A stretch of 64,000 nucleotides of DNA from Candidatus Obscuribacterales bacterium (GTDB taxonomy: Bacteria > Cyanobacteriota > Vampirovibrionia > Obscuribacterales > Obscuribacteraceae). The stretch spans positions 73,547 to 137,546 of the forward strand of contig JAXLXI010000003.1 in the NCBI GenBank assembly GCA_046328035.1, in the 5' to 3' direction. Below are positions 3,001-13,223 of the stretch, piece after piece. Positions within the stretch are counted from its first letter, which is position 1; every line of letters begins with the position of its first letter. The notes under the pieces are model-generated. The model saw nothing but the letters and a program-made list of their open reading frames with translations. It did no database searches and was not told the origin of the DNA. A program made the translations under genes and the position numbers.

Positions 3001-3169
3001 CAAAGAGTTGATGAAGAACTTCTACCAGAATCTTTGGAACCCAACCAATCCGATGCAACCCGTAGCCGCGTTGAGAGCCGCTCAGAACACCGTCAGGTCG
3101 GCTCCTGGTGGCAAATGGAAGCATCCCTATTATTGGGCAGGCTGGGTCTTCGACGGAGTTGGTTGGTGA
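2..3169 (+). CDS. TPR-repeat / CHAT-domain (caspase-fold) protein, 5'-partial. The reading frame is open to the window edge.
   Basis: ORF 65-3169 has no in-frame stop upstream to position 2. It has N-terminal TPR-like repeats. The C-terminal CHAT signature includes HLATHGFFD and LVVLSACNTGRGKDYEGQGVMGLRAA, which carries the His/Cys dyad context. Confidence 0.8.
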   Translation, partial: LGKLNRRKGNLQAAEKAYRTQLDLLIKSKATASELEDPLKELGRALVELGRLGEAEPYYNQAYVSIANKRQVRKNVFIDVVIETQSAMATSVYKSKFGGNADDLAKTIADTKARLDPNGGVNSRSLAYADFLESVGFAYPNFRIKRQPLIPLLEEAIQIRLRVEGPDTPRIADDKFQIAVRLANLGGDYTAPALDAYKIWVKLRDRHDVRLKSFQPSILRLAYLLAGNAETKSQALEMATLARANLAPDSPNAGREWGGFGLLYENLGEFGQARTAYEKANLWFQAHNDPTGTARTAIADARICYLERDYDVAWQKAKAAEAICQKNWGVTHYQENVAGMMCLETLTAIARARGDLEAAELYARMLTLKTKWLQQNSDMARHYLALAQVLSMGNDKSEATRYAQDAVSILSNLREKTSYDEIELAKAHLLLGGLALAKQDYKLADAEYRQAFILHGTDKSTDGVLGLVADLNGIAFTGSKLGKKQAAIENALLACDKLDTYIKTGFPELSFAEQCAFIKCVRDEINPLLSLGTTGDTTAEPFKYVMRWQGLLIDAVRRQTSLERSGDPQTVAQLRQIRQELSQLSSGAAMNNQAASTAAAIQTKTEAKEALERKLALSATVTTATTDPMLTLTPRDFVNSLSNDEALVDVLRYKDLLANKPAYYAFVVSKKAGVKGFRLGDADDIEKLSAQWLQAMASNSGSTRDVSILDEDPKSTEPAKTQIDLDAATGTVTQKLWTPIKAALPPGIRRVWICPDSQLATLPWSTMVDSVENGQVLTSQIDSPRAWWQLKAPHQTPVAQDFLLIGGIRFAQQSLFLPGTESEVADISKLAEPVKLHLSKLTGAEPTKNEVLRQLGTATYAHLATHGFFDQGDEKTISQQAAQTVADQLLASQRSFVTVSTGEGALNTTAVMSARNPLVMSGLLVAPAQGSNVNANDRLTAEELVGQDLSHCNLVVLSACNTGRGKDYEGQGVMGLRAALIGAGARGVLMSLWPVDDRATKELMKNFYQNLWNPTNPMQPVAALRAAQNTVRSAPGGKWKHPYYWAGWVFDGVGW

Positions 3170-3171
3170 CT

Positions 3172-6100
3172 ATGAAGAAACTGCTACTTCTCTTAGCGGC
3201 GGCACTATCCTGTGCCTGTCAGGTGGATGCCCAGGAATCCAGCAAGAAATTGCAGGACGCCGAAAAGTCCTGCCGAGCGCAAATCGAGCAGCTCACTAAA
3301 AATAAGGCGCCTGAGGCGCAGCTGGCGAAAGCCCTTCATGAGTTAGCGGGAATACTCGTTGAGGAGGGTCGCCCGGCAGAGGCAGAGCCCCTCTACAATC
3401 AGTACAGAGACAACGATGCACTAATTCGCAAAAACATTTTCATAGACATTGCTTTAGAAGCTCAGAACTCCGCCGCACGCGAAACTCACGAAAAAGCTTT
3501 TGGTATCGCACCCGATCTCAGCAAAGTAATGTCCGACAACGGCTCAAAAATGGATCCGAACTCGGTCCAGTACGCCCAGTTTCTGGACGATGTTGCAATT
3601 GCGTATCCATACTTCAAAAACAAGACGCAGCCGGTGATTCCAATCATTGTTCAGGCGATGCAGATCAGACAGAAGCTGGAAGGCAACGATAGCCCGTCCG
3701 TCGCTCAGGAAAAGTTTTTGATCGCACATCGACTGGCGGCGCTGGGTGGTGACTATGTTCCGCCCGCGCTGGAAGGGTATGCAATCTGGAAGAAGTTGAG
3801 CGATGCAAAAGATGCTCGCCTCAAGACACCAGCCGTTCAAGCATCGTTGGTGCGCCTGGCTTACCTCTTGTCCGGCGATGAGAGAACGCGGCAGAAGGGG
3901 GTAGAACTGGCAAATCTGGCTCTTGCCAATTTCAGCGCTCTTGCTCCCAACGGTGACTTATCCGTATCGCCTGTTAACGGTCGCGAAAAGTACGGATTGG
4001 GACTGTTGTTTGAAAATCTCGGAGACTATGCAAAGGCTGAAGCTACCTTCGCGGCGTCTCAAATTTGGTACGCAAACCACAACCAGCCGCAAGACAACAG
4101 AGTGCGAACACTGATTGCCCGAGCCAGAGTGTGTCGCCTGGAAGGTGACTATGATGTAGCTTGGTCGAGAGCCAGAGAAGCAGAAGATCTCTGCAAGAAA
4201 CTTTGGGGGCCGACCTATTATCAGGACAACATGCTCGGCATGAATTGCCTGGAGGTCCTCACGTCGGTCGCCCGATCCAAAGGCGATCTGGCAGCAGCAG
4301 AAAACTATGCGCGGCAGCTGTGTGGGAAATCGAACCTGCGATTGAGCAACAGTCAGGTAGCTAGTCATCAACTGGAACTAGCACAAGTTCTCAGCTTGTC
4401 GAACAACGCCGCTGAGGCGGCATCGGTCGCGCAAAAAGCGGTGACAATTCTCTCCAGCATCATCCAACCAACCTACACCGATCAGTCCGAACTAGCCAAA
4501 GCGCACTTGCTGCTTGCCGGGCTTGCCCTTTCCAAGCAAGACTACAAACTTGCGGACACCGAGTATAACCAGGCATTGAAACTGCATCTCAAAGACACGT
4601 CGAGCGCTGGTGTTCTTGGGCTGGTGGCGGACTACAATGGCATTGCATTCGCTAACAGCAAACTTGGTGCCCAAGCAGTTGCGAATAAAAATGTTTTGGC
4701 CGCCTGCGAGAAGCTGGACGAGTTTGTAAAGTCCGGGTTTCCGAAGCTCTCATTTGCAGGTCAGTGCGCGTTTATCAAGTGCGTAGGCGATCAGATCAAC
4801 GCGCTCCTATCATACGGCTCGGCAACTGAGTCAGCCGACAAGCGATTTGAATATGTTATGCGCTGGCAGGGTCTTTTGATCAACGCTGTCAGACAACATT
4901 CCAACCTGGAACGCAGCGGCGACCCGAACACCGTCGCCGCCCTCAGAAACATCAGGCAAGAGCTTTCAAAACTCTCCGCCGGTGGTGCCGGTCAACAATC
5001 CGATCTGATCGGCATTCAGACCCGGACAGAAATTAAAGAAATGCTCGAACGCAAACTCGCCCTCAAAAATACTGCGACCGGCGAGATCGATCCAACGCTC
5101 ACCAAAACAGCTCGCGAGTTCGCAAGCTCATTGAGCAGCGATGAAGTCGTAGTAGACATGCTCCGCTACAAAGATATGCTCACCAACAAGTCGGCATACT
5201 TCGTCTTTGCAGTTTCTAAGTCAGGTGGTGTCAAGGGATTTCGACTGGGTGATGCCGACGACATAGATAAGGTGTCAACCGATTGGCTTCACGCCATGGC
5301 TTCGAACTCTGGCACCGCCCGCGATGTCTCCATTACCGACGACGACGAGAAACCAAACTCGCCAAACGCTGCCAATGCACCCCGCGTCGATTGCACTGAG
5401 CTGGCAAATGCCGTCGGCAAGAAACTTTGGTTGCCCATCAAAGCAGCAATCCCGGCAAGCGCTCCAAAAGTGTGGATTTGCCCCGACTCAAAACTTGCGA
5501 CCCTGCCCTGGTCTGTTCTCATAGATAACAACGAAGGCGGCCGCATACGCACCTGTCAAATCGACAGTCCGCGCGCCCTGCTGCAATTGCGGGCACCTTA
5601 TAAAGCTCCTCAAGCAAAAGATCTCTTTGTGATCGGCGGCATCGAGTTTGCGCAAAAGGCACTTTTCCTTCCGGGTACAGAATCCGAAGCCAACGAAATC
5701 GCCGCGCTTGCAGAGCCAATGAAGCTTCATGTGTCGAAGTTGACTGGTCTTCAGCCGACCAAGGATGAGGTGCTCAAACACTTGAGCAGTTCCACTTATG
5801 CACACCTTGCCACGCACGGATTCTTCGATCCGGCAGACGACCGAGACAAAACGGTGCCCCTGGTGACATTGCCTGGCGACACAGTGAGGTTCTCCGGCAA
5901 AGATCAGGGCGGCATCGACACGAGAGCTGCAGCCGCCTCGCGCAATCCACTTGTCTTGTCCGGTCTTCTGGTGGCACCAATACCGGACGCACAAAAATTG
6001 GGCGGTGGCCAATTCAAATCCAACTACCTGAACATCATCGCGGGCAGCAACAACGATCGGCTTACCGCTGAGGAGTTGGTTGGCCAGGACTTGAGCCACT

Positions 6101-6414
6101 GCAATCTCGTTGTCTTGTCCGCCTGCAACACCGGTCGCGGCAAAGACTACGAAGGGCAGGGAGTGATGGGACTGCGCGCCGCATTAATCGGTGCCGGAAC
6201 GCGAGGAGTCTTGATGTCACTCTGGTCTGTCGATGACAAGGCCACAAAAGAATTGATGAAGGCGTTCTATCAAAATCTGTGGAATCCCACGAAACCGATG
6301 AAACCAGTCGACGCATTGAAGGCGGCGCAAGAGTCGGTGAAGTCAACCCCCGGTGGCAAGTGGAAGCATCCCTACTACTGGGCGGGTTGGGTCTACGACG
6401 GCGTGGGCTGGTAG
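3172..6414 (+). CDS. TPR-repeat / CHAT-domain protein with a Sec signal peptide. It is a tandem paralog of the upstream gene.
   Basis: The ATG at 3172 (M47 of the ORF) opens MKKLLLLLAAALSCACQVDAQ. The domain order is the same as gene 1 and the C-terminal roughly 120 aa are near-identical to it. Confidence 0.85.
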   Translation: MKKLLLLLAAALSCACQVDAQESSKKLQDAEKSCRAQIEQLTKNKAPEAQLAKALHELAGILVEEGRPAEAEPLYNQYRDNDALIRKNIFIDIALEAQNSAARETHEKAFGIAPDLSKVMSDNGSKMDPNSVQYAQFLDDVAIAYPYFKNKTQPVIPIIVQAMQIRQKLEGNDSPSVAQEKFLIAHRLAALGGDYVPPALEGYAIWKKLSDAKDARLKTPAVQASLVRLAYLLSGDERTRQKGVELANLALANFSALAPNGDLSVSPVNGREKYGLGLLFENLGDYAKAEATFAASQIWYANHNQPQDNRVRTLIARARVCRLEGDYDVAWSRAREAEDLCKKLWGPTYYQDNMLGMNCLEVLTSVARSKGDLAAAENYARQLCGKSNLRLSNSQVASHQLELAQVLSLSNNAAEAASVAQKAVTILSSIIQPTYTDQSELAKAHLLLAGLALSKQDYKLADTEYNQALKLHLKDTSSAGVLGLVADYNGIAFANSKLGAQAVANKNVLAACEKLDEFVKSGFPKLSFAGQCAFIKCVGDQINALLSYGSATESADKRFEYVMRWQGLLINAVRQHSNLERSGDPNTVAALRNIRQELSKLSAGGAGQQSDLIGIQTRTEIKEMLERKLALKNTATGEIDPTLTKTAREFASSLSSDEVVVDMLRYKDMLTNKSAYFVFAVSKSGGVKGFRLGDADDIDKVSTDWLHAMASNSGTARDVSITDDDEKPNSPNAANAPRVDCTELANAVGKKLWLPIKAAIPASAPKVWICPDSKLATLPWSVLIDNNEGGRIRTCQIDSPRALLQLRAPYKAPQAKDLFVIGGIEFAQKALFLPGTESEANEIAALAEPMKLHVSKLTGLQPTKDEVLKHLSSSTYAHLATHGFFDPADDRDKTVPLVTLPGDTVRFSGKDQGGIDTRAAAASRNPLVLSGLLVAPIPDAQKLGGGQFKSNYLNIIAGSNNDRLTAEELVGQDLSHCNLVVLSACNTGRGKDYEGQGVMGLRAALIGAGTRGVLMSLWSVDDKATKELMKAFYQNLWNPTKPMKPVDALKAAQESVKSTPGGKWKHPYYWAGWVYDGVGW

Positions 6415-7257
6415 TTAGCCGGAAATTCTGCGATGTCCAATAAAAACGTGCTTGCCCTGCAGGGACTCTACTAGTCCCATAAAATCGGCCAGTGTGGTTT
6501 GCGGATCTTGATCCGGATTGAGCGCGACCGCAAGTCCTGCGAGATCGCCGTAGGAGCTGTTTCCTTCCTGAGCTTTCTCAATGATCGCCGCCGCCACATG
6601 TCCCACGGACAAGAAACGAATCTCTTTGTCCTCAGGATCTCGATAAACAAGGACAATACTCGGCTCCGCCTTCACGTCTACCGGCAACTCATCCGACTCT
6701 TCTTCCAGCTTCTCGGCGATGGCGATGAGATCGAACTGATACCGCCGAATAAGCAGAGCCGGGTTGACCAGAGGTTTGAATCCCGCGAACTCCTCAGCCG
6801 ATTGCAGCAGGCACGTATCGGATTGATAATCGAATTCCGTATCATCGAAATCAATCATGTCGCTTTCGGAAAACTCGTAATCGACCAGGTCCGTCAAGTA
6901 AGGAAACTTTTCCTTCACCTGTTCGTTCAAATGTTTTTCGATGAATGTCTTGAAGTGTTCGCCGGCGCGACTGGATCTGTAGCTGGTCGGCGGGCAGATG
7001 TTGCGATAGTCTTCCACGATTTCGTCCCAGTCTTCTCCTAACAGTTTTTCCGTCAGAGGAAAAGTCATGCTCATCGTTTCGTAGTGTTTGACTTGCAAAA
7101 CTTGAACGTAGATCATCAGCCGTTCTTTATCGATTTGAGCGGCGATCTCGGGACCAATGTCCGAGAAGTCGCCTGCCAAGAATCGCTCCAATGCGTCGCG
7201 ATTGGTCCATAATTTGGTCATTGCCTTTTCGACTTCGGAGAGCGTGGTACCAGGCAT
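6415..7257 (-). CDS. DUF2063-like partner protein of the DUF692/MNIO enzyme (MbnC/BufC/HvfC-type)
   Basis: It lies 4 nt downstream of the DUF692 gene on the same strand. It is 280 aa with an N-terminal region compatible with DUF2063. The call rests mainly on the conserved gene pairing. Confidence 0.55.
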   Translation of the reverse strand: MPGTTLSEVEKAMTKLWTNRDALERFLAGDFSDIGPEIAAQIDKERLMIYVQVLQVKHYETMSMTFPLTEKLLGEDWDEIVEDYRNICPPTSYRSSRAGEHFKTFIEKHLNEQVKEKFPYLTDLVDYEFSESDMIDFDDTEFDYQSDTCLLQSAEEFAGFKPLVNPALLIRRYQFDLIAIAEKLEEESDELPVDVKAEPSIVLVYRDPEDKEIRFLSVGHVAAAIIEKAQEGNSSYGDLAGLAVALNPDQDPQTTLADFMGLVESLQGKHVFIGHRRISG

Positions 7258-7261
7258 AGTT

Positions 7262-8179
7262 TTATCCGCGTACCCGGTGTGACGTCTTCGCCTGATTCGC
7301 CTGAGACTTGCTGTCGAGCCAGCCTGGTTGTGCTGCTTTGACTACAGCTCGAATATCGTCCAGCTCTGCCAGTAACTCAGAAAACTCATCGGGAAAATGC
7401 TGATCGCGCTCGAGGAGAATCGCGTTGACTGGAACCCGTTCCATCACATACTTAAGCAGATCCAGAACCGGTCTTGGAGGTGTGGCACCATGCGTATCCA
7501 CATAGGCATCGAATTCGGGAGCATGGTGGTGACCGGCTATGTGAATTTGTACGGTGCGCTCAAGCGGAATCTGATCCATAAATTCGATAGGATCGAACTT
7601 GTGATTGAGCGAATTGACATACACATTGTTGATATCGAGCAGAAGCCCGCAATCGGCTTGCTCCAACACTTCAGAAAGAAACTGAGCTTCATCCAGCTCG
7701 CTGCCGGGCATACGCATGTAGTACGTGATGTTTTCGAGAAGAAACGGAATGTCCGTCATCTCCTGGACTTTCTTCGCGCGTGTCACGCAATGCGCAACGG
7801 CTTCGCGTGAGAACGGCAGCGGCAGCAACTCGTGCGTTTGCACGCCGCCAAAGGCGCTGAAACAAAGATGGTCGCTCCACCAAGGAGCATCGATATGCTT
7901 CAGGAGTTTCTTCAGAGACCGGATGTAGTCCTGGTCTATTTCGTCGGTGCTCCCGAGAGACAGTCCGACCCCGTGCGCGATTAGAGGGAACACCTTTAAA
8001 GCCCTGTCCAAGCGGGCTCGCGATTTTCCGCCCAGTCCCATGAATTGCTCGGAGATTATTTCCAGCCAGTCGATCTGCTCGGCGTGCTCGAAGGTTTCGT
8101 CTTCCACTTCGTTGCGCAGCCCCATGCCGACACCCAGTATCGGCAATTGCTTTTTCACATCGAGAAACTTAGACGTCAT
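7262..8179 (-). CDS. DUF692 / UPF0276 family TIM-barrel protein (MNIO, MbnB/BufB/HvfB-like)
   Basis: The N-terminal LGVGMGLR motif is typical of UPF0276. The protein is about 305 aa. The motifs HLCFS, IHIAGHHHAPEFD and DTHG provide His/Asp/Glu metal-ligand candidates. Its start overlaps the upstream stop as TAATG. Confidence 0.8.
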   Translation of the reverse strand: MTSKFLDVKKQLPILGVGMGLRNEVEDETFEHAEQIDWLEIISEQFMGLGGKSRARLDRALKVFPLIAHGVGLSLGSTDEIDQDYIRSLKKLLKHIDAPWWSDHLCFSAFGGVQTHELLPLPFSREAVAHCVTRAKKVQEMTDIPFLLENITYYMRMPGSELDEAQFLSEVLEQADCGLLLDINNVYVNSLNHKFDPIEFMDQIPLERTVQIHIAGHHHAPEFDAYVDTHGATPPRPVLDLLKYVMERVPVNAILLERDQHFPDEFSELLAELDDIRAVVKAAQPGWLDSKSQANQAKTSHRVRG

Positions 8180-9570
8180 TATTTAGCCTTGCGCTTGCTT
8201 ACGGGAAGTCCACAATCAGCGGGATTGGAATCACCGGCGTACGACCAGTCAGGTCGCACAAATTTTGTGTCGGCGCAATAAATTGCCATGCCGGCCATCG
8301 AGTCTTGCGGCTGCGCCGTCGGATTGACGTAAGTCGCTTCCAGCTCGTAATGCTTGCCCCCTATCAAAGGAATACCTTCGCTGGAACTCAGCGTGTCGAT
8401 GTGCAAAATCTGCAGCGGCTTTTCCTGCGTTCGCGCCTTGACCAAGATCACTTCTTTGCGCGCTTTACCGTTGCACTCGACCAGCGCAAATTTTTCACAA
8501 TAAGGATGCACGTGAGCCATGACCAGATGAACGCGTCTGTTCACCGCGGAGAAATCGGCATTGGCAGGCGATGTGATGGTGCTGACGGGACTTGTGTAAG
8601 TGTGAGTACCGGGTGGCACCACCCAGTGCCCGATTTGTTTGCGCCCCAGCTCATCACTGAAGATCATGCTTCGCATGCTGCTCGGTGCCGGCACGCCATC
8701 AGACATCAAAGAGCAGTCCGGGCACATGTTGTGTTCTTCCTGTGCCGCCTCCGGCGAATTGCGATCGATCACCACATTGATCACCGGGTAGTACCAGAAT
8801 AGAGCTTTGATTGGATAAACAAGTTCCGAATCGCGGACGAATGAAAGTATGCAGCGTTGTTTCACACGCCGGGGCTTGTCGCTGTCTCTATTGATTGCTT
8901 GAAAAATGAATCGCCAGGTCTCGTCGCTGGCCACCGGCAATCCATAGCCGCGAGGAAAGGTGAATTCGGTCTGCCCCTGCGAGAGGACGATGTGGCGCAT
9001 GCTTCCTGGTTGTTCGCTCTCAGGAAACACCTGGCTGCGGAAATCTAGATCGACATCAATGGTCGAGTGGCAGAAAAATTCGTCGGTAGGTAAAACCTGA
9101 TCGTTTTCGTCCAGGACTTCCAGCTTGATCGACTTCAGCCAGAGCAACTCTCTGCCTTTTGTGCGCGAGGCTTTCAGCCCGATCACACCTGCATCCGTTA
9201 CATCGGACTTCGCCCCTTTGGCACTGCCGGACATAGCAGGTGCCGGTTTTGAACAACCTTCAACGAATTGTACAAGGGCTTCTGGAATTTGAATCTGCTT
9301 CGACGCAATCAGATCGGCAATGCGCAGCGGCTCGCGCACATAGGGACCTTCCATGGATCGATATTTTTTGTGCAGGTCGAAAGGACCGATAGTAATTTCG
9401 ACGGTGCTCAGCGGTCCTTCCGTTTGCTGACTATCGCGTTGGACAGGCAGCGCTGTACTTACTAGAGAATCAAACCCTGCGCCCATTGCGGGCAACTTGA
9501 GCTGGTTGGCAAATAAACTACCAACCAGACACAACGTTGCTAGCACGGACGCAGGGCTAAATTTTCTCAT
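8179..9570 (-). CDS. Secreted 463-aa protein of unknown family, co-operonic with the MNIO genes
   Basis: The N-terminal signal peptide is MRKFSPASVLATLCLVGSLFA. It contains several Cys/His clusters, including HVHPYCEKFALVECNG and MCPDCS. I could assign no domain. It is translationally coupled to the DUF692 gene. Confidence 0.6.
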   Translation of the reverse strand: MRKFSPASVLATLCLVGSLFANQLKLPAMGAGFDSLVSTALPVQRDSQQTEGPLSTVEITIGPFDLHKKYRSMEGPYVREPLRIADLIASKQIQIPEALVQFVEGCSKPAPAMSGSAKGAKSDVTDAGVIGLKASRTKGRELLWLKSIKLEVLDENDQVLPTDEFFCHSTIDVDLDFRSQVFPESEQPGSMRHIVLSQGQTEFTFPRGYGLPVASDETWRFIFQAINRDSDKPRRVKQRCILSFVRDSELVYPIKALFWYYPVINVVIDRNSPEAAQEEHNMCPDCSLMSDGVPAPSSMRSMIFSDELGRKQIGHWVVPPGTHTYTSPVSTITSPANADFSAVNRRVHLVMAHVHPYCEKFALVECNGKARKEVILVKARTQEKPLQILHIDTLSSSEGIPLIGGKHYELEATYVNPTAQPQDSMAGMAIYCADTKFVRPDWSYAGDSNPADCGLPVSKRKAK

Positions 9571-9585
9571 TGAACCTGAGGCTGA

Positions 9586-9930
9586 CTACTTGGTTTCAGC
9601 TTCCTTTTTGGCATCTTCGGCCGGTTTGGATTCGCCGGCTTTGTCGGTCTTGCCATGCTTCTTGGCGTTGCCGTAGTGGCATCCGCACGGATATGTGCAA
9701 CCGCCGCCTCTGTTTTTGCCAGGACCTTTTTTCTTGCCGGCAGGCTTGGCTTCTTCTTTCTTGGTGTCGTCTTTCTTATCGGTGTCGGCCAGGTTGGTTC
9801 CCTTTTCAGCGATTGCCATTCCGGTCGATTTGGCTGCTACTGCCGGTTGACCTGAGCTGACCAGAACACCAGAGCTGACGCTGATCGCTGCGAGCAATAC
9901 CGTCAAATCGGTCTTGTTCAATTTTTCCAT
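9586..9930 (-). CDS. Putative RiPP precursor peptide. It is Sec-secreted, Lys/Glu-rich and carries a single CTYPCGCHYG core motif.
   Basis: The ATG at 9930 is preceded by GGAGG at a 5-nt spacing. The ORF-track start at 9942 is a TTG. The signal peptide is MEKLNKTDLTVLLAAISVSSGVLVSSGQPAVAA. The remainder has three Cys in a 7-residue window. It sits 15 nt upstream of the next gene. Confidence 0.65.
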   Translation of the reverse strand: MEKLNKTDLTVLLAAISVSSGVLVSSGQPAVAAKSTGMAIAEKGTNLADTDKKDDTKKEEAKPAGKKKGPGKNRGGGCTYPCGCHYGNAKKHGKTDKAGESKPAEDAKKEAETK

Positions 9931-10046
9931 TCTGTCCTCCAATTCCTATAACTCAGGGAAGGTTACTTCCCTTATGGCGGGCCAAAACAGATTATCGTCG
10001 GCAGATAACGATTTGCCCATATGTTTCTACAAAAAATTCCTTGGCT

Positions 10047-12164
10047 TTATCTAATGACAAGCCTGAGAGTCGTCGTGGTCCACTCGTCAAGCGAGTTGCT
10101 GTCTTCCTCGCTGACGCCCAGATCGCGGGTGTTGTGACCACCGACGCTGCGGCGGAAAAGTTCTTCCAGCGCCGTACCGGGACCGGACGGAGCAGCACGG
10201 CTGACGCCAGACTGTCCAAGTATGGTGAAATCAGCCGGCTTGGTTGTGACGATAAATTTGAGGGTCTCCACTCCCAGGGGCGGCTTGATGCTAAGCAAGC
10301 GCTTCTGTGCCGGCCACCGGAAAGTACCTTTAGGAGGCAGCGGATATTTGGCATTGTCCGGCGGATAGAGCACAGCGATGCTGCCGCTGGTCTCAATTGC
10401 CAAAATAGCGATGTAGATATTTTCGTCCGTGGTGTTGGTCAACTTGAGTCGCAACTTGTCCCCCACGTGCACGGTGGGCACAAGTTGATTTCCTGGAACG
10501 GGATCTTCTTTGAAGGTCGGCTCGCCCCATTCGTCTTTACCAAGTGGGGTAACTTTCAGCACTTCGATCTTCAGAGCGCCCTTGAGAGGCGAGACTTGAT
10601 TATCGAGAGCCAACACGCGCTGCTGTCGAGCTCCCTTTTCCAGAGCGCTGGCTATGGTGTCGGCAGCGTGTGGATCGTTTTCATCCACCCAGACATCAAA
10701 GAGCGGCGCACCATCCTTAGTGGCAATGAAGTAACCGTTGCCTTTGGCGTCACGAGTGCCGGCGGAACTTTTCTCCTGCTGGAAGTTATTGTATGTGTCC
10801 TTCACGACAGACATGTCCCAGCCGCCGGCGTCGCGTGTTTTGAACGGATCAGCGGTTTTGCTGGCAATTTTGACCAGTTTGGGGTCGACCGAATCAGTCA
10901 GGCCCTTGGTGAACTGCTGCCAGCTGGCTGAGTTCGTTTCTCCAGGAACGGCATTGAATGCTGTCACATTGAGCGGACCGGCGCCGAAGTGCGGCGTGAC
11001 GATTTTGGCTTTGGCCGACTTCAACGCTTCCTGATCAACGCCTGCCGGTCTTTCGATGGTGGCACTGAGTGCATTGCAATCTTTGGCGCTGGCGACACCC
11101 AACAAATCTTTGTTGCCGCGCAGCTGAGTTGCTTCCTTTTTATAGAACGCCACCAGCGTGCCTGGATCGATCCCCTGCAGAGAACCGGCGGCAATGGTGA
11201 TGCTCTTGTCGGTGACTTCCGAAACTGGAATGTACGGATCGGCTCGATCGGTTGCATCGCCGAATATGAAACGGTCGATGTCGCCTTCGATTTGCGGATG
11301 CTGATTGGAACGGTTGCCCGTCACTCCCGTTGCCACCGCTCCCCACAAGTCGCGATATGTAGTACCGGCGTTCGCCTGCTCAAGCGCATCAATCAAGTTT
11401 ATTGTCAGAAGTCCATTGGCACGGTCACCCTGCGGAGTATCGGTGTCGGACTCGCCGGCAGTCTCGTTGGGCAAGCATCCCGCCATTGACACATAAGTAG
11501 CCGGTGGAGCGCTTTTGGCGTCCTTTGGTTTTTGTGGAGGTTGCGGTCTGTCATCAGTCTCGGCCTTGCGCAGTCTCACACTCACGGTCGCGTCTCGAAC
11601 ATTGGAGCCGGAGTGGCAGCAATCAGTGATTATGGTGATGTTTTTCGTATATTGACCGAGCTGGTTGATCAGGTCTTCCAGATCGTCGTCGGTAAGGTCG
11701 TAGTGATCAGGCTGGCGAGAATCTACCGGCACGAGAGTTTCATCCATACCGTCCTCCTCATCGCCGTTCATGTCGGGCACCTGAGAGCCATGCCCGCTGT
11801 AATGAAACACACAGATGGCATTCGGATTTGCTTTGGCATTCTCAATCAATTGAGCCTTGAACGCATCAACGATGGCTTGTCTGGTTGCCTGGCGCGAGAG
11901 CAAGACTTTTATATGTTTGTCGTCATCAGGAAACCCGAAGCGTGTCGTGAGAAGCTTGCGCATGTCCTTCGCATCGTTTTCACAACCATCCAGCTTTTCC
12001 AGGCGTTTGGAGATGTAGTCATCAATGCCAATCAAAAGGGCAAACTTGTTTTGATTGCCCGGCTGCTGGGGAGCGTCAGCTGCGGCAGCCATACGAATCG
12101 GTCCGAGTACCGCCACCAGCATCACGCAAAGTGCCACCACTGGAGAGATCAGATGTCGTTTCAT
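10047..12164 (-). CDS. Secreted peptidase C14 (caspase/metacaspase-fold) domain protein with a roughly 450-aa C-terminal extension of unknown function
   Basis: It has a signal peptide. Caspase signatures present are FALLIGIDDY, HYSGHGSQ and DCCHSG. Confidence 0.8.
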   Translation of the reverse strand: MKRHLISPVVALCVMLVAVLGPIRMAAAADAPQQPGNQNKFALLIGIDDYISKRLEKLDGCENDAKDMRKLLTTRFGFPDDDKHIKVLLSRQATRQAIVDAFKAQLIENAKANPNAICVFHYSGHGSQVPDMNGDEEDGMDETLVPVDSRQPDHYDLTDDDLEDLINQLGQYTKNITIITDCCHSGSNVRDATVSVRLRKAETDDRPQPPQKPKDAKSAPPATYVSMAGCLPNETAGESDTDTPQGDRANGLLTINLIDALEQANAGTTYRDLWGAVATGVTGNRSNQHPQIEGDIDRFIFGDATDRADPYIPVSEVTDKSITIAAGSLQGIDPGTLVAFYKKEATQLRGNKDLLGVASAKDCNALSATIERPAGVDQEALKSAKAKIVTPHFGAGPLNVTAFNAVPGETNSASWQQFTKGLTDSVDPKLVKIASKTADPFKTRDAGGWDMSVVKDTYNNFQQEKSSAGTRDAKGNGYFIATKDGAPLFDVWVDENDPHAADTIASALEKGARQQRVLALDNQVSPLKGALKIEVLKVTPLGKDEWGEPTFKEDPVPGNQLVPTVHVGDKLRLKLTNTTDENIYIAILAIETSGSIAVLYPPDNAKYPLPPKGTFRWPAQKRLLSIKPPLGVETLKFIVTTKPADFTILGQSGVSRAAPSGPGTALEELFRRSVGGHNTRDLGVSEEDSNSLDEWTTTTLRLVIR

Positions 12165-12203: not shown

Positions 12204-13136
12204 TTAGGGCGATGGGTCTGAGGGTTTTGCAAAAAGCACGGCATCGCTGCCGCTCCACCGGCTGTAGTTCACCGTGGGATGCTGTTCGTGCATGCGCAGC
12301 CTGGCTGCCATAATCACTTGCTGGCGTGTTTCCTCAAAAGCAGTCTTGAGTTTTCCGTCGTATTTGGCCAGGTTTTCCAAAAGATAGTGAGTGAAAAGCC
12401 CGCTCTCGTTAAAATCGTCATCTACAGATGTTTCATTGGCAGAGCAGGCGGTGACAGCAATCTGTCCGGCACCGATGACGTCGGTGGTCGCTGCGGCGTC
12501 TCTGGTTTTGACGTTGCCGGAAAAACAGGTATCAACGATGATGACGACTCGATCTGAGGGGAGCGATTGTTTGATCATGCGACCCAGCTCTTGCATGCTC
12601 AATCCCGTGCTCTTCGGATTTCGATCGTCGAAGTCGTAGGTGAGAATGTAATTTTCGCCGTTCTTGTCCGAGAATGACGTGCTGCCGTGGCTGGAGAAGT
12701 ACACGACCACCAGGTCGTCGGGGCGTACGACGTTTTTCAGCCAACCCGAGCCCAGGTAATAACGAATTTTTTCGCCAGTGGCTTGCGAGTTCAACAAGAC
12801 TTTCACGTGGCTGGGGGCAAATCCGGCTTTGTAAATCAGGAAATTGCGCACGTCGACGGCATCCTTGACGCTGAACGTGAGCGAGTCGGCGCGAGCCGGG
12901 AGAACCAGGCGAGGAGTAGTGGACGTGCCTTTCTCGATGTGAGCGCCGAGCAAATCGACTGTGGGAAACTCGCTAACTCCAATCAGCAATGCCCACTTAT
13001 CGGTGACCGGGCGATCGACAGAAGCGGCTGCCGGAGCGGCTGCCTCAGTTTTTTCCGACGCTGCGCGCACCGGTCCGAGGGTGGGCACGAGCAGTGCTGC
13101 CAGCAAAAGGTAGAAGCGCAATTTCGAAAACGACAT
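12204..13136 (-). CDS. Secreted caspase-like (peptidase C14 fold) protein
   Basis: WALLIGVSEF, YFSSHGS and VDTCFSG provide the His/Cys dyad context. The signal peptide is MSFSKLRFYLLLAALLVPTLG. The ATG at 13136 is preferred over the GTG at 13163. Confidence 0.7.
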   Translation of the reverse strand: MSFSKLRFYLLLAALLVPTLGPVRAASEKTEAAAPAAASVDRPVTDKWALLIGVSEFPTVDLLGAHIEKGTSTTPRLVLPARADSLTFSVKDAVDVRNFLIYKAGFAPSHVKVLLNSQATGEKIRYYLGSGWLKNVVRPDDLVVVYFSSHGSTSFSDKNGENYILTYDFDDRNPKSTGLSMQELGRMIKQSLPSDRVVIIVDTCFSGNVKTRDAAATTDVIGAGQIAVTACSANETSVDDDFNESGLFTHYLLENLAKYDGKLKTAFEETRQQVIMAARLRMHEQHPTVNYSRWSGSDAVLFAKPSDPSP

Positions 13137-13223
13137 AGTTGTATGCCTGGGTTGATCGTGCACATATTAAGACGAAATGCGAAAATGACGCGAGGTTGTG
13201 AACAATTTCTCGTCTGCCGGAGT

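What the first reader, a model, noticed from the sequence alone, without database searches (positions are those of the whole stretch)
9586..9942. Precursor gene start is probably the ATG at 9930 with a GGAGG RBS, not the ORF-track start; the signal-peptide plus CxxxCxC core architecture is unusual
The ORF-track start at 9942 is a TTG. Four codons downstream, an ATG at 9930 is preceded by GGAGG with a 5-nt spacer. The predicted protein then begins MEKLNKTDLTVLLAAISVSSGVLVSSGQPAVAA|K, a classical Sec signal. The mature product of about 82 aa contains roughly 30 percent Lys. Its only Cys lie in C-T-Y-P-C-G-C-H-Y, which has aromatic and His residues suited to metal coordination. Most MNIO substrates are short peptides. 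Only bufferins are protein-like and Sec-exported, but they have different Cys motifs.
Basis: seen in the sequence. Interest (0 to 1): 0.6.

Follow-up and report, generated by a model that had tools for sequence, protein, structure and literature searches.

The report
New copper-peptide precursor with PHM-like partner

Summary
ATG 9930 is preceded by GGAGG (9936-9940) with a 5-nt spacer, and the ATG-GAA start is conserved in all 8 homologous loci, whereas the in-frame TTG 9942 occurs only in this species. The 114-aa product has a signal-peptide-like N-terminus, K/E/T-rich filler and one Cys motif. About 12 homologues exist, all from Obscuribacterales-type contigs. They conserve the N-terminal block and YPCGCHYG (family-wide C-x2-3-C-G-C). 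Synonymous changes dominate (40 synonymous vs 7 non-synonymous codons, L004 vs L006).

The "unusual architecture" claim is not supported. Published surveys show that a Sec signal peptide, a Cys core, an MNIO and a DUF2063 partner form the majority MNIO layout (bufferins/captophorins).

Best reading: a captophorin-type copper-binding peptide is modified in the cytoplasm, exported, and then acts with, or is tailored by, a periplasmic PHM-like copper protein. All chemistry is inferred.

The parts
9936..9940 (-). Shine-Dalgarno sequence GGAGG, 5 nt upstream of the ATG
   Evidence: Read directly from the sequence. GGAGG recurs with a 4-nt spacer in L001 and L003, and GGGGGT occupies the same position in L004-L010 and L014.
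9586..9930 (-). Precursor gene, 114 aa plus stop codon, starting at ATG 9930
   Evidence: Homologues P0001, P0002 and P0123-P0129. ATG-GAA start conserved in 8 loci. Excess of synonymous changes.
9835..9930 (-). Residues 1-32: conserved Sec-type signal peptide, which probably also serves as the leader recognised by the MNIO-partner complex. Predicted cleavage is A32|A33.
   Evidence: In A2, M1, E2, K6, L9, T10, L12, L13, A15, S17, S20, G21, S25, P29 and A32 are invariant. The block is still recognisable in paralogues that have different cores. The recognition role is inferred from PMC12452194.
9670..9699 (-). Core motif C78-T-Y-P-C82-G-C84-H-Y-G87, the presumed MNIO target and metal-binding site
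   Evidence: C78, Y80, P81, C82, G83, C84, H85, Y86 and G87 are invariant in A2. C78, C82, G83 and C84 are invariant in all 12 sequences of A4.
8179..9570 (-). 463-aa exported PHM/DBH-like two-domain beta-sandwich protein. It has no Pfam family and is a candidate periplasmic copper monooxygenase.
7262..8179 (-). MNIO (DUF692) enzyme, 305 aa, with no signal peptide. Its start overlaps the stop of the PHM-like gene by 1 nt.
   Evidence: PF05114 at E = 1e-91. The nearest NCBIfam models are BufB (271 bits, cut-off 310) and HvfB (260 bits, cut-off 360). The nearest solved structure is 3BWW at E = 4.5e-51. Gene junction.
6415..7257 (-). PME-type-1 partner protein (DUF2063 N-domain plus NGO1945_C/RRE-type C-domain), 280 aa, cytoplasmic
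   Evidence: PF09836 at E = 3.9e-9, PF22106 at E = 1.8e-7, and NF050145 (HvfC) at E = 1.4e-18, below its cut-off.
9991..10019 (-). Weak sigma-70-like promoter candidate (TGGGCA, 17 nt, GATAAT) in the 104-nt gap upstream of the precursor
   Evidence: 9 of 12 matches. Five such sites were found in the region against 2.3 +/- 1.7 expected, so this is only a hint.

Best explanation
Window 9586-9930 (minus strand) is a genuine gene that starts at ATG 9930.

Its product has three parts:
1. A conserved 32-residue Sec-type signal peptide, which probably also acts as the leader bound by the DUF2063/RRE partner protein.
2. A variable, disordered Lys/Glu/Thr-rich spacer.
3. A single invariant core, C-x-Y-P-C-G-C-H-Y-G.

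It is the precursor of a captophorin/bufferin-type RiPP. The proposed pathway is:
1. In the cytoplasm, the MNIO (7262-8179) and its PME1 partner (6415-7257) oxidise one or more of the three Cys, most likely to 5-thiooxazoles.
2. The Sec system then exports the peptide, and signal peptidase cuts after A32.
3. In the periplasm, the thiooxazole, His and Tyr residues form a copper site.
4. There the peptide works with the co-encoded exported PHM-like protein (8179-9570), either as its substrate or as its copper donor or buffer. As a substrate it would undergo hydroxylation or oxidative cleavage near the Y-P-C-G-C-H-Y-G motif.

Shown here: the gene, its start, motif conservation, gene linkage, the enzyme families and the fold.

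Inferred: signal-peptide cleavage, the thiooxazole chemistry, copper binding, and any reaction by the PHM-like protein.
For: - Start and RBS.
- Real coding gene: 40 synonymous vs 7 non-synonymous codon differences.
- Conserved leader and core across about 12 homologues whose spacers have diverged.
- Paralogues in L015 and L018 keep the leader but carry different Cys cores. This is the pattern expected if the N-terminus is the recognition element.
- The precursor stays linked to MNIO plus HvfC despite changes in gene order and an MNIO::HvfC fusion. This holds in window/L013, L001, L003, L004-L009, L014 and L015-L019.
- The MNIO is nearest to the 5-thiooxazole-forming BufB and HvfB models and to 3BWW.
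- The partner is PME type 1, the type that correlates with signal-peptide precursors (PMC12452194).
- Compartment logic: the MNIO and partner lack signal peptides, while the precursor and the PHM-like protein have them.
- PHM-like fold and an invariant HxH...M triad.
- The PHM-like gene is adjacent to the precursor in all main-clade loci.
- Paralogues of the PHM-like family are fused to cyclophilin or ankyrin domains, which points to peptide or protein substrates.
Against: - There is no experimental or mass-spectrometric evidence for any modification.
- The MNIO scores below the BufB and HvfB equivalog cut-offs, so its chemistry may differ.
- The precursor matches none of the described captophorin precursor groups. 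None of its Cys residues sits in a Lys-Cys or Cys-Lys context.
- The signal-peptide n-region has no net positive charge, and SignalP was not run.
- The PHM-like family lies mostly outside MNIO clusters (L011, L012).
- The PHM-like gene is absent within 7 kb in L015-L019. L010 has the precursor and the PHM-like gene but no MNIO within reach. The three-way link is therefore not obligatory.
- The CuH-type His3 site of PHM is not conserved.
- Sequence similarity to PHM is marginal (E = 0.007-0.043), and no Pfam copper-monooxygenase model matches.
Confidence: 0.62

Rival explanations
1. The peptide is not a substrate of the PHM-like protein. Instead it is that protein's dedicated periplasmic copper chaperone or buffer. 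The MNIO-modified peptide binds Cu(I) and loads or protects the cuproenzyme, in the way a caddie protein serves tyrosinase. The enzyme itself acts on some other substrate.
For: - The PHM-like family (854 representative clusters) is mostly unlinked to MNIO genes, so it has a function of its own.
- In the window, L001, L003 and L010 the precursor lies immediately upstream of the PHM-like gene. In the window the gap is 15 nt.
- In L010 the pair persists without an MNIO.
- Published bufferin domains are fused to the cuproenzyme FGE-sulfatase (PMC12452194).
- A Csp copper-storage gene lies 2.5 kb from a cyclophilin-fused homologue in L011.
Against: - In L015-L019 the precursor and MNIO occur without an adjacent PHM-like gene.
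- Cyclophilin and ankyrin fusions in the PHM-like family, together with the invariant Pro and Gly residues in the core, fit a peptide-substrate relationship at least as well.
- Nothing here measures metal transfer.
Confidence: 0.3
2. The 463-aa PHM-like protein is itself the MNIO substrate, as a protein-sized precursor with a signal peptide and conserved Cys. The small ORF would then be an accessory.
For: - In the window the PHM-like gene immediately precedes the MNIO gene and overlaps it by 1 nt. That is the position normally held by precursors (gene-order rule in PMC12452194).
- It has a signal-peptide-like N-terminus and an invariant C167.
- The literature proposes protein-sized MNIO substrates.
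Against: - In L004-L009 the order is small ORF, MNIO::HvfC, PHM-like gene. In L015-L019 the PHM-like gene is absent while the small ORF remains directly upstream of the MNIO.
- C167 is invariant across the whole family, including members with no MNIO nearby.
- The small ORF has the leader-plus-Cys-core anatomy and leader-sharing paralogues typical of RiPP precursors.
Confidence: 0.05
3. The small protein acts without modification, as a secreted, disordered, Lys-rich protein with a Cys3-His-Tyr metal site. Its linkage to the MNIO would be incidental, or the MNIO performs non-thiooxazole chemistry on it.
For: - L010 lacks an MNIO within 6 kb.
- The MNIO scores below the equivalog cut-offs for BufB and HvfB.
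Against: - Linkage to MNIO plus HvfC is kept in every other locus despite rearrangement and gene fusion.
- PME1 proteins are almost always dedicated MNIO partners (PMC13097082).
- C82-G83 is the Cys-Gly dyad preferred by a characterised 5-thiooxazole-forming MNIO.
Confidence: 0.1
4. Translation starts at the TTG at 9942, as in the ORF track, adding M-E-D-R in front.
For: The TTG is in frame and opens the longest ORF. It is also present in L013.
Against: - The TTG overlaps the GGAGG itself (9940-9936) and so has no SD of its own.
- The -12 codon is not a start codon in L001, L003, L004-L010 or L014. All homologues begin with ATG-GAA.
Confidence: 0.03

Closest known systems
Captophorins (fontiphorin, oxazolin/HvfA, gonophorin) and bufferins (Buf1/DUF2282, Buf2): MNIO-PME1 RiPPs carrying Cys-derived 5-thiooxazoles that bind copper
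   Same: - MNIO plus a DUF2063/RRE partner plus a Cys-containing precursor with an N-terminal Sec-type signal peptide.
- The MNIO is nearest to BufB, HvfB and 3BWW.
- The core contains a Cys-Gly dyad.
- Enzymes are cytoplasmic and the product is exported.
   Different: - The precursor matches no DUF2282, Buf2, EGKCG (Lys-Cys), Cys-Lys or CxxxxC group.
- It has one three-Cys motif, YPCGCHYG, embedded in low-complexity K/E/T filler.
- There is no DoxX, sigma factor or anti-sigma gene.
- The lineage is Melainabacteria, not Pseudomonadota.
- The MNIO scores below the equivalog cut-offs.
[quoted passage not shown] The surveys say secondary tailoring genes are rare in the large families.
- In sister loci the MNIO and partner are fused into one 608-626-aa protein.
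Peptidylglycine alpha-hydroxylating monooxygenase (PHM) and dopamine beta-hydroxylase: eukaryotic type II copper monooxygenases
   Same: - V-P-P-G ... H-x-H aligns locally with PHM V-I-P-P-G ... H242-x-H244.
- An invariant D-S-M425 resembles PHM D-E-M314 (the correspondence is inferred).
- The protein is secretory or exported.
- It is linked to a peptide with an invariant Gly after the core.
   Different: - About 10% identity and no Pfam PF01082 or PF03712 match.
- The CuH pair H107-H108 is replaced by C167-H168, and no invariant counterpart of H172 exists.
- There are additional invariant residues (M73, H315, N227, W144).
- There is an extra N-terminal segment and a disordered insert at residues 106-125.
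- It is bacterial, with no PAL lyase domain and no known ascorbate supply.
Methanobactin system (MbnA/MbnB/MbnC)
   Same: An MNIO acts on Cys of a ribosomal peptide to build a copper-binding heterocycle and sulfur ligand set.
   Different: - The MbnB model scores only 42 bits against a cut-off of 325.
- The partner is DUF2063 type, not MbnC.
- This precursor has a signal peptide, whereas methanobactin precursors do not.
- No MbnT, MbnE, MbnH or MbnP genes were seen in the region.
Buf1|Cytochrom_C|FGE-sulfatase fusion proteins (bufferin domain joined to a cuproenzyme)
   Same: A captophorin/bufferin-type Cys peptide is physically or genetically coupled to an exported copper-dependent oxidase (PMC12452194).
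   Different: That case is a fusion, whereas here the genes are separate. The cuproenzyme fold also differs (FGE vs PHM-like).

Membership tests
Captophorin / bufferin-type MNIO-PME1 RiPP cluster | MNIO (PF05114) enzyme encoded in the cluster | tested here: met
   PF05114 at E = 1e-91, 307 bits against a cut-off of 25. 3BWW at E = 4.5e-51.
Captophorin / bufferin-type MNIO-PME1 RiPP cluster | PME-type-1 partner: a DUF2063 domain plus an RRE-type C-terminal domain, encoded next to the MNIO | tested here: met
   PF09836 scores 37.1 bits (cut-off 27.2) and PF22106 scores 31.9 bits (cut-off 27). The NCBIfam HvfC model scores 67.6 bits, below its equivalog cut-off of 142.
Captophorin / bufferin-type MNIO-PME1 RiPP cluster | Cys-containing precursor peptide encoded in the cluster | tested here: met
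   C78, C82 and C84 are invariant in 12 homologues, which are linked to MNIO/HvfC in 7 of 8 distinct locus types.
Captophorin / bufferin-type MNIO-PME1 RiPP cluster | N-terminal Sec signal peptide on the precursor | tested here: inconclusive
   The heuristic features fit: a hydrophobic core, A-V-A at -3 to -1, and invariant P29 and A32. However, the n-region net charge is 0, and no SignalP or DeepTMHMM was available.
Captophorin / bufferin-type MNIO-PME1 RiPP cluster | Precursor belongs to a described group (DUF2282/Buf1, Buf2 6/12-Cys, EGKCG Lys-Cys, Cys-Lys, CxxxxC) | tested here: not met
   No Pfam or NCBIfam hit. The Cys contexts are G-C-T, P-C-G and G-C-H, with none Lys-Cys or Cys-Lys. 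The motif is absent from the survey supplements and from all searchable papers.
Captophorin / bufferin-type MNIO-PME1 RiPP cluster | MNIO reaches the equivalog score for BufB or HvfB | tested here: not met
   BufB scores 271.2 bits against 310, and HvfB scores 260.1 bits against 360. They remain the closest models by a wide margin over ApyH, ChrH and MbnB.
Captophorin / bufferin-type MNIO-PME1 RiPP cluster | Gene order precursor-MNIO-partner (bufABC) | tested here: not met
   [quoted passage not shown] The canonical order, with a fused MNIO::HvfC, is found in L004-L009 and L015-L019.
Captophorin / bufferin-type MNIO-PME1 RiPP cluster | Cys converted to 5-thiooxazole, with copper binding by the product | not testable with these tools
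   This needs heterologous expression, MS, UV and NMR, and metal titration.
PHM/DBH type II copper monooxygenase (for the 463-aa protein) | Two-domain beta-sandwich (double jelly-roll) fold | tested here: met
   [not shown]
PHM/DBH type II copper monooxygenase (for the 463-aa protein) | CuM site: H-x-H plus a distal Met | tested here: met
   H353, H355 and M425 are invariant in 56 sequences. HxH aligns to PHM H242/H244 (E = 0.043 and 0.007). The equivalence of M425 to M314 rests on motif resemblance only.
PHM/DBH type II copper monooxygenase (for the 463-aa protein) | CuH site: H-H pair plus a third His in the N-terminal domain | tested here: not met
   The only invariant His in the N-terminal domain is H168, preceded by invariant C167. 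No third invariant His exists, and H193 is variable. No residue-level structural superposition was available.
PHM/DBH type II copper monooxygenase (for the 463-aa protein) | Match to the Pfam Cu2_monooxygen or Cu2_monoox_C models | tested here: not met
   No such hit at E <= 10 in 35 members, nor at E <= 1 in 10 distant members.
PHM/DBH type II copper monooxygenase (for the 463-aa protein) | Copper- and reductant-dependent hydroxylation activity | not testable with these tools
   Biochemistry is required.
Methanobactin (Mbn) system | MbnB-type MNIO with an MbnC partner and a leader-core MbnA lacking a signal peptide | tested here: not met
   MbnB scores 42.3 bits against a cut-off of 325. The partner is DUF2063 type. 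The precursor has a signal-peptide-like N-terminus.

The most novel reading that the evidence does not exclude
This would be a two-compartment RiPP pathway. A cytoplasmic MNIO installs thiooxazoles on C-x-Y-P-C-G-C. After Sec export, a bacterial PHM-type copper monooxygenase hydroxylates the invariant Gly87, or another C-H bond of the core. That would release a C-terminally amidated, copper-binding Y-P-C-G-C-H-Y-NH2-type peptide. It would be the first bacterial counterpart of animal peptide amidation, and the first copper monooxygenase tailoring step in an MNIO pathway. The PHM-like enzyme would use a Cys-His site in place of the classical His3 electron-transfer copper.
Probability: 0.12. Interest if true: 0.85.

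Novelty: new variant of a known kind. Interest (0 to 1): 0.55.

Why it matters
MNIO-PME1 clusters are now seen as a very widespread bacterial answer to copper stress. However, they have been described almost entirely in Pseudomonadota, with three precursor groups and few tailoring enzymes.

This locus would extend the class in four ways:
- It adds a new lineage, Melainabacteria.
- It adds a fourth kind of core, a single Cys3-His-Tyr motif in a disordered Lys-rich chain.
- It offers a natural case of leader sharing between different cores.
- It points to an 850-cluster family of exported, unannotated proteins with a PHM-like fold and an invariant Cys-His plus His-x-His...Met ligand set.

If that protein acts on the peptide, it would be a bacterial analogue of peptide-amidating copper chemistry. 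If instead the peptide feeds it copper, it would be a clear example of a RiPP serving as a dedicated metallochaperone. Either outcome can be tested directly with four genes.

Tried and rejected
- Pfam and NCBIfam scans of the precursor and the 463-aa protein found nothing. Relaxed Pfam scans of 35 and then 10 family members gave no copper-monooxygenase hit.
- A profile search of the PHM-like family against PDB sequences gave only a spurious 0.1 hit to an isopentenyl-diphosphate isomerase.
- Global hhalign to PHM produced a meaningless alignment. The equivalence of the N-terminal (CuH) domain could therefore not be mapped by sequence.
- The afdb50 fold library was unavailable.
- A metagenome scan with the leader pattern found no confirmed relative. 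A scan with the back-translated YPCGCHYG gave 8 hits, all chance: short ORFs with no leader and no MNIO, HvfC or PHM-like gene.
- The genome scan found only 2 species.
- Literature searches for the motif, for MNIO plus peptidylglycine, and for bacterial PHM-like proteins found no precedent. The hits that mention PHM only draw analogies.
- I considered a lipoprotein signal and a Tat signal and rejected both. There is no lipobox Cys and no twin-Arg motif.
- I considered whether the window holds further precursor paralogues. It holds none. The C-I-Y-C-G-C hit at 1783(+) follows a stop codon and has no leader.
- No intrinsic terminator lies between the precursor and the PHM-like gene on the coding strand.
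Full report
**Observation.** On the minus strand the sequence reads ...TATAGGAA-TTG(9942)-GAGGACAGA-ATG(9930)-GAAAAATTG.... GGAGG occupies 9940-9936 and is separated from ATG 9930 by the five bases ACAGA. The TTG that opens the longest ORF overlaps the GGAGG, so it has no ribosome-binding site of its own. From the ATG the product is 114 aa. Its only Cys residues are C78, C82 and C84, in C-T-Y-P-C-G-C-H-Y. If the first 33 residues are removed, the remainder is 81 aa with 19 Lys (23.5%, not about 30%), 12 Gly, 10 Ala, 13 Asp+Glu and a net charge of +7.

**Is it a real gene, and where does it start?** Two direct homologues were found first (P0001, P0002). Their contigs repeat the same four-gene order. 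Following the neighbouring 463-aa gene to more distant contigs revealed further small ORFs of 107-109 aa. A profile search then returned nine clusters among 5.8 billion.

All homologues begin ME(K/R). In all eight loci compared, the ATG-GAA start is preceded by a purine-rich SD: GGAGG at 4-5 nt, or GGGGGT. The codon at -12 is a start codon only in the window and in L013, its same-species counterpart.

Codon comparison shows purifying selection in this frame. L004 vs L006 differ at 40 synonymous and 7 non-synonymous codons, and L001 vs L003 at 29 and 17. The start at ATG 9930 is therefore well supported.

**Anatomy of the protein family.** The seven-sequence alignment A2 has two conserved blocks separated by variable Lys/Glu/Thr-rich filler.
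- N-terminal block: M1, E2, K6, L9, T10, L12, L13, A15, S17, S20, G21, S25, P29, A32.
- Core block: R74, G77, C78, Y80, P81, C82, G83, C84, H85, Y86, G87, K91, G93.

More distant members keep YPCGCHYG but move the first Cys. P0129 has D-C-Y-P-C-G-C and P0127 has C-S-A-C-Y-P-C-G-C.

In L015 and L018 a second small ORF lies just upstream. It has the same N-terminal block but a different core, C-I-D-C-T-C-G-C-G-K-S or C-A-D-C-C-G-C-K-Y-S. Across all twelve sequences the invariants are M1, L12, L13, C78, C82, G83 and C84.

That is what one expects of a RiPP leader.

**Signal peptide.** No predictor was available. The heuristics give a hydrophobic stretch (Kyte-Doolittle mean 2.12 over 12 residues), no lipobox and no twin-Arg motif. 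Invariant P29 and A32 place an AxA-type site at A30-V31-A32|A33. The n-region has net charge 0, which is weak. The MNIO and its partner have no such N-termini. The 463-aa protein does.

**The neighbours.** Gene 7262-8179 is an MNIO (PF05114, E = 1e-91). Its nearest NCBIfam models are BufB (271 bits, cut-off 310) and HvfB (260 bits, cut-off 360), far above ApyH, ChrH and MbnB. Its nearest solved structure is 3BWW (E = 4.5e-51), which Gadgil et al. name as a captophorin-type MNIO.

Gene 6415-7257 is a PME-type-1 partner, with DUF2063 plus NGO1945_C. The genes are tightly packed. The gap from precursor to 463-aa gene is 15 nt, the 463-aa gene and the MNIO overlap by 1 nt, and the gap from MNIO to partner is 4 nt. 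In sister loci the MNIO and partner are fused into one 608-626-aa protein, and the gene order changes, but the precursor remains linked to them.

**Comparison with what is known.** Antoine et al. 2025 report four relevant points:
- Precursors range from 31 to 506 residues.
- Hundreds of further small signal-peptide ORFs with 1-18 Cys precede MNIO genes.
- Signal-peptide precursors go together with PME-type-1 partners, and the signal peptide is probably part of the recognition sequence.

Gadgil et al. 2026 define captophorins as the products of MNIO plus PME1 plus a Cys-rich precursor, carrying 5-thiooxazoles. [quoted passage not shown] They also find that one such MNIO prefers a Cys-Gly dyad.

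This precursor nevertheless fits none of the described groups. The motif is absent from the survey supplements and from every searchable paper. The survey text does not mention Cyanobacteria. The window matches a Candidatus Obscuribacteraceae MAG, in which the precursor is 100% identical at nucleotide level. That places it in phylum Melainabacteria. The survey took the ORF immediately preceding the MNIO and required fewer than 200 residues. In the window, L001 and L003 that rule would have met the 463-aa gene and skipped the locus.

**The 463-aa protein.** It has no Pfam, NCBIfam or PDB-sequence match. It has 236 word-indexed homologues, many fused at the C-terminus to cyclophilin and one to ankyrin repeats. 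An exhaustive profile search found 854 representative clusters.

In a 56-sequence alignment the invariant residues are W144, C167, H168, G199, P212, G321, H353, H355, N416 and M425. I validated a rat PHM sequence against the PDB; it was identical to 4e4z_A. With it, hhalign aligns V-V-P-P-G...H353-V-H355 to PHM V-I-P-P-G...H242-T-H244, at E = 0.043 and then 0.007 with the broader profile. Q-D423-S-M425 resembles PHM S-D-E-M314 (inferred).

PHM has the CuH pair H107-H108. At what is probably the equivalent strand this family has C167-H168, and there is no invariant third His. The protein is thus PHM-like in fold, with a CuM-type triad. It fails the CuH and Pfam membership tests, so I do not file it as a PHM family member.

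**Linkage of the PHM-like gene.** It is adjacent to the precursor in every main-clade locus: window/L013, L001/L002, L003, L004/5, L006/7, L008/9/L014 and L010. P0126 and P0006 probably also share one 2,044-bp contig. It is absent within 7 kb in L015-L019. Most of the wider family is not near an MNIO (L011, L012). L010 has the precursor and the PHM-like gene but no MNIO within reach.

**Mechanism.** The best-supported model has these steps:
1. The cytoplasmic MNIO-PME1 pair binds the conserved N-terminal block.
2. It oxidises core Cys, most likely to 5-thiooxazoles.
3. Sec exports the product, and signal peptidase cuts after A32.
4. The thiooxazole, His and Tyr core binds copper in the periplasm.

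Topology dictates that the PHM-like protein can meet the peptide only after export. Two roles are compatible with the data.
- **Tailoring of the peptide.** The cyclophilin and ankyrin fusions in paralogues argue for peptide or protein substrates. The invariant Pro81 and Gly87 are suggestive.
- **Copper client of the peptide.** The published fusion of bufferin domains to the cuproenzyme FGE and the MNIO-less pair in L010 favour this reading.

I rate tailoring slightly ahead of the chaperone role. The amidation-at-Gly87 version is specific and unproven (probability about 0.12).

**Verdict.** The claim of an unusual architecture is wrong as stated. The locus is still a new variant of the captophorin/bufferin kind, with a new precursor family, a new lineage and an unreported PHM-like accessory protein. 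None of the chemistry has been shown.

Noticed in passing
window 10047-12164 (-), 12204-13163 (-), 3034-6414 (+): Two caspase-like genes (Peptidase_C14; one also carries DUF4384) lie directly upstream of the precursor on the same strand. Both have signal-peptide-like N-termini. A CHAT/TPR protein converges on the partner gene. The same gene set neighbours the cluster in L001 and L003, in a different arrangement, but not in L004-L010. Caspase-family proteases that cut after basic residues could process the Lys/Arg-flanked core, but this is pure speculation.
   Followed up: partly
L004 4148-6001; L006 4121-6001; L008 4175-6001; L015 7319-9157; L018 7361-9205: In sister loci the MNIO and the HvfC-type partner are fused into a single 608-626-aa protein.
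   Followed up: partly
L015 6552-6896; L018 6592-6924: A second precursor-like ORF lies in tandem with the first. It has the same conserved leader but a different Cys core (C-I-D-C-T-C-G-C-G-K-S; C-A-D-C-C-G-C-K-Y-S). This suggests that one MNIO-partner pair serves two cores.
   Followed up: partly
L010 4799-6583: The precursor and the PHM-like gene are adjacent, with no MNIO or HvfC detectable by tblastn in the 12.6 kb held. The contig ends 4.8 kb upstream. It is unknown whether the MNIO is elsewhere in that genome.
   Followed up: partly
L011 3123-3515 (-), 3590-3991 (-), 6001-7914 (+): A Csp-type copper storage protein gene and a Cys-rich exported 133-aa ORF lie about 2.5 kb from a cyclophilin-fused member of the PHM-like family. 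This is a single-locus hint of a copper context.
   Followed up: no
L004 7428-10106 (-); L008 11607-13434 (-): A prolyl-oligopeptidase-type S9 peptidase gene lies next to, or near, the cluster in several sister loci. Upstream, an RND transporter, a response regulator and a fasciclin-domain gene are conserved in L004-L009.
   Followed up: no
window 9957-9970 (-): A short inverted repeat, GGAAG-TAAC-CTTCC, lies about 17 nt upstream of the SD. In L013 it has one change in the loop. Its function is unknown.
   Followed up: no
window 8179-9570 vs L013 8361-9797: The PHM-like protein of the GTDB representative MAG carries a 15-residue insertion in the disordered linker after the signal peptide and is about 92% identical over the alignment. 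The precursor gene, by contrast, is 100% identical at nucleotide level. The window therefore comes from a close relative rather than from the same assembly.
   Followed up: partly
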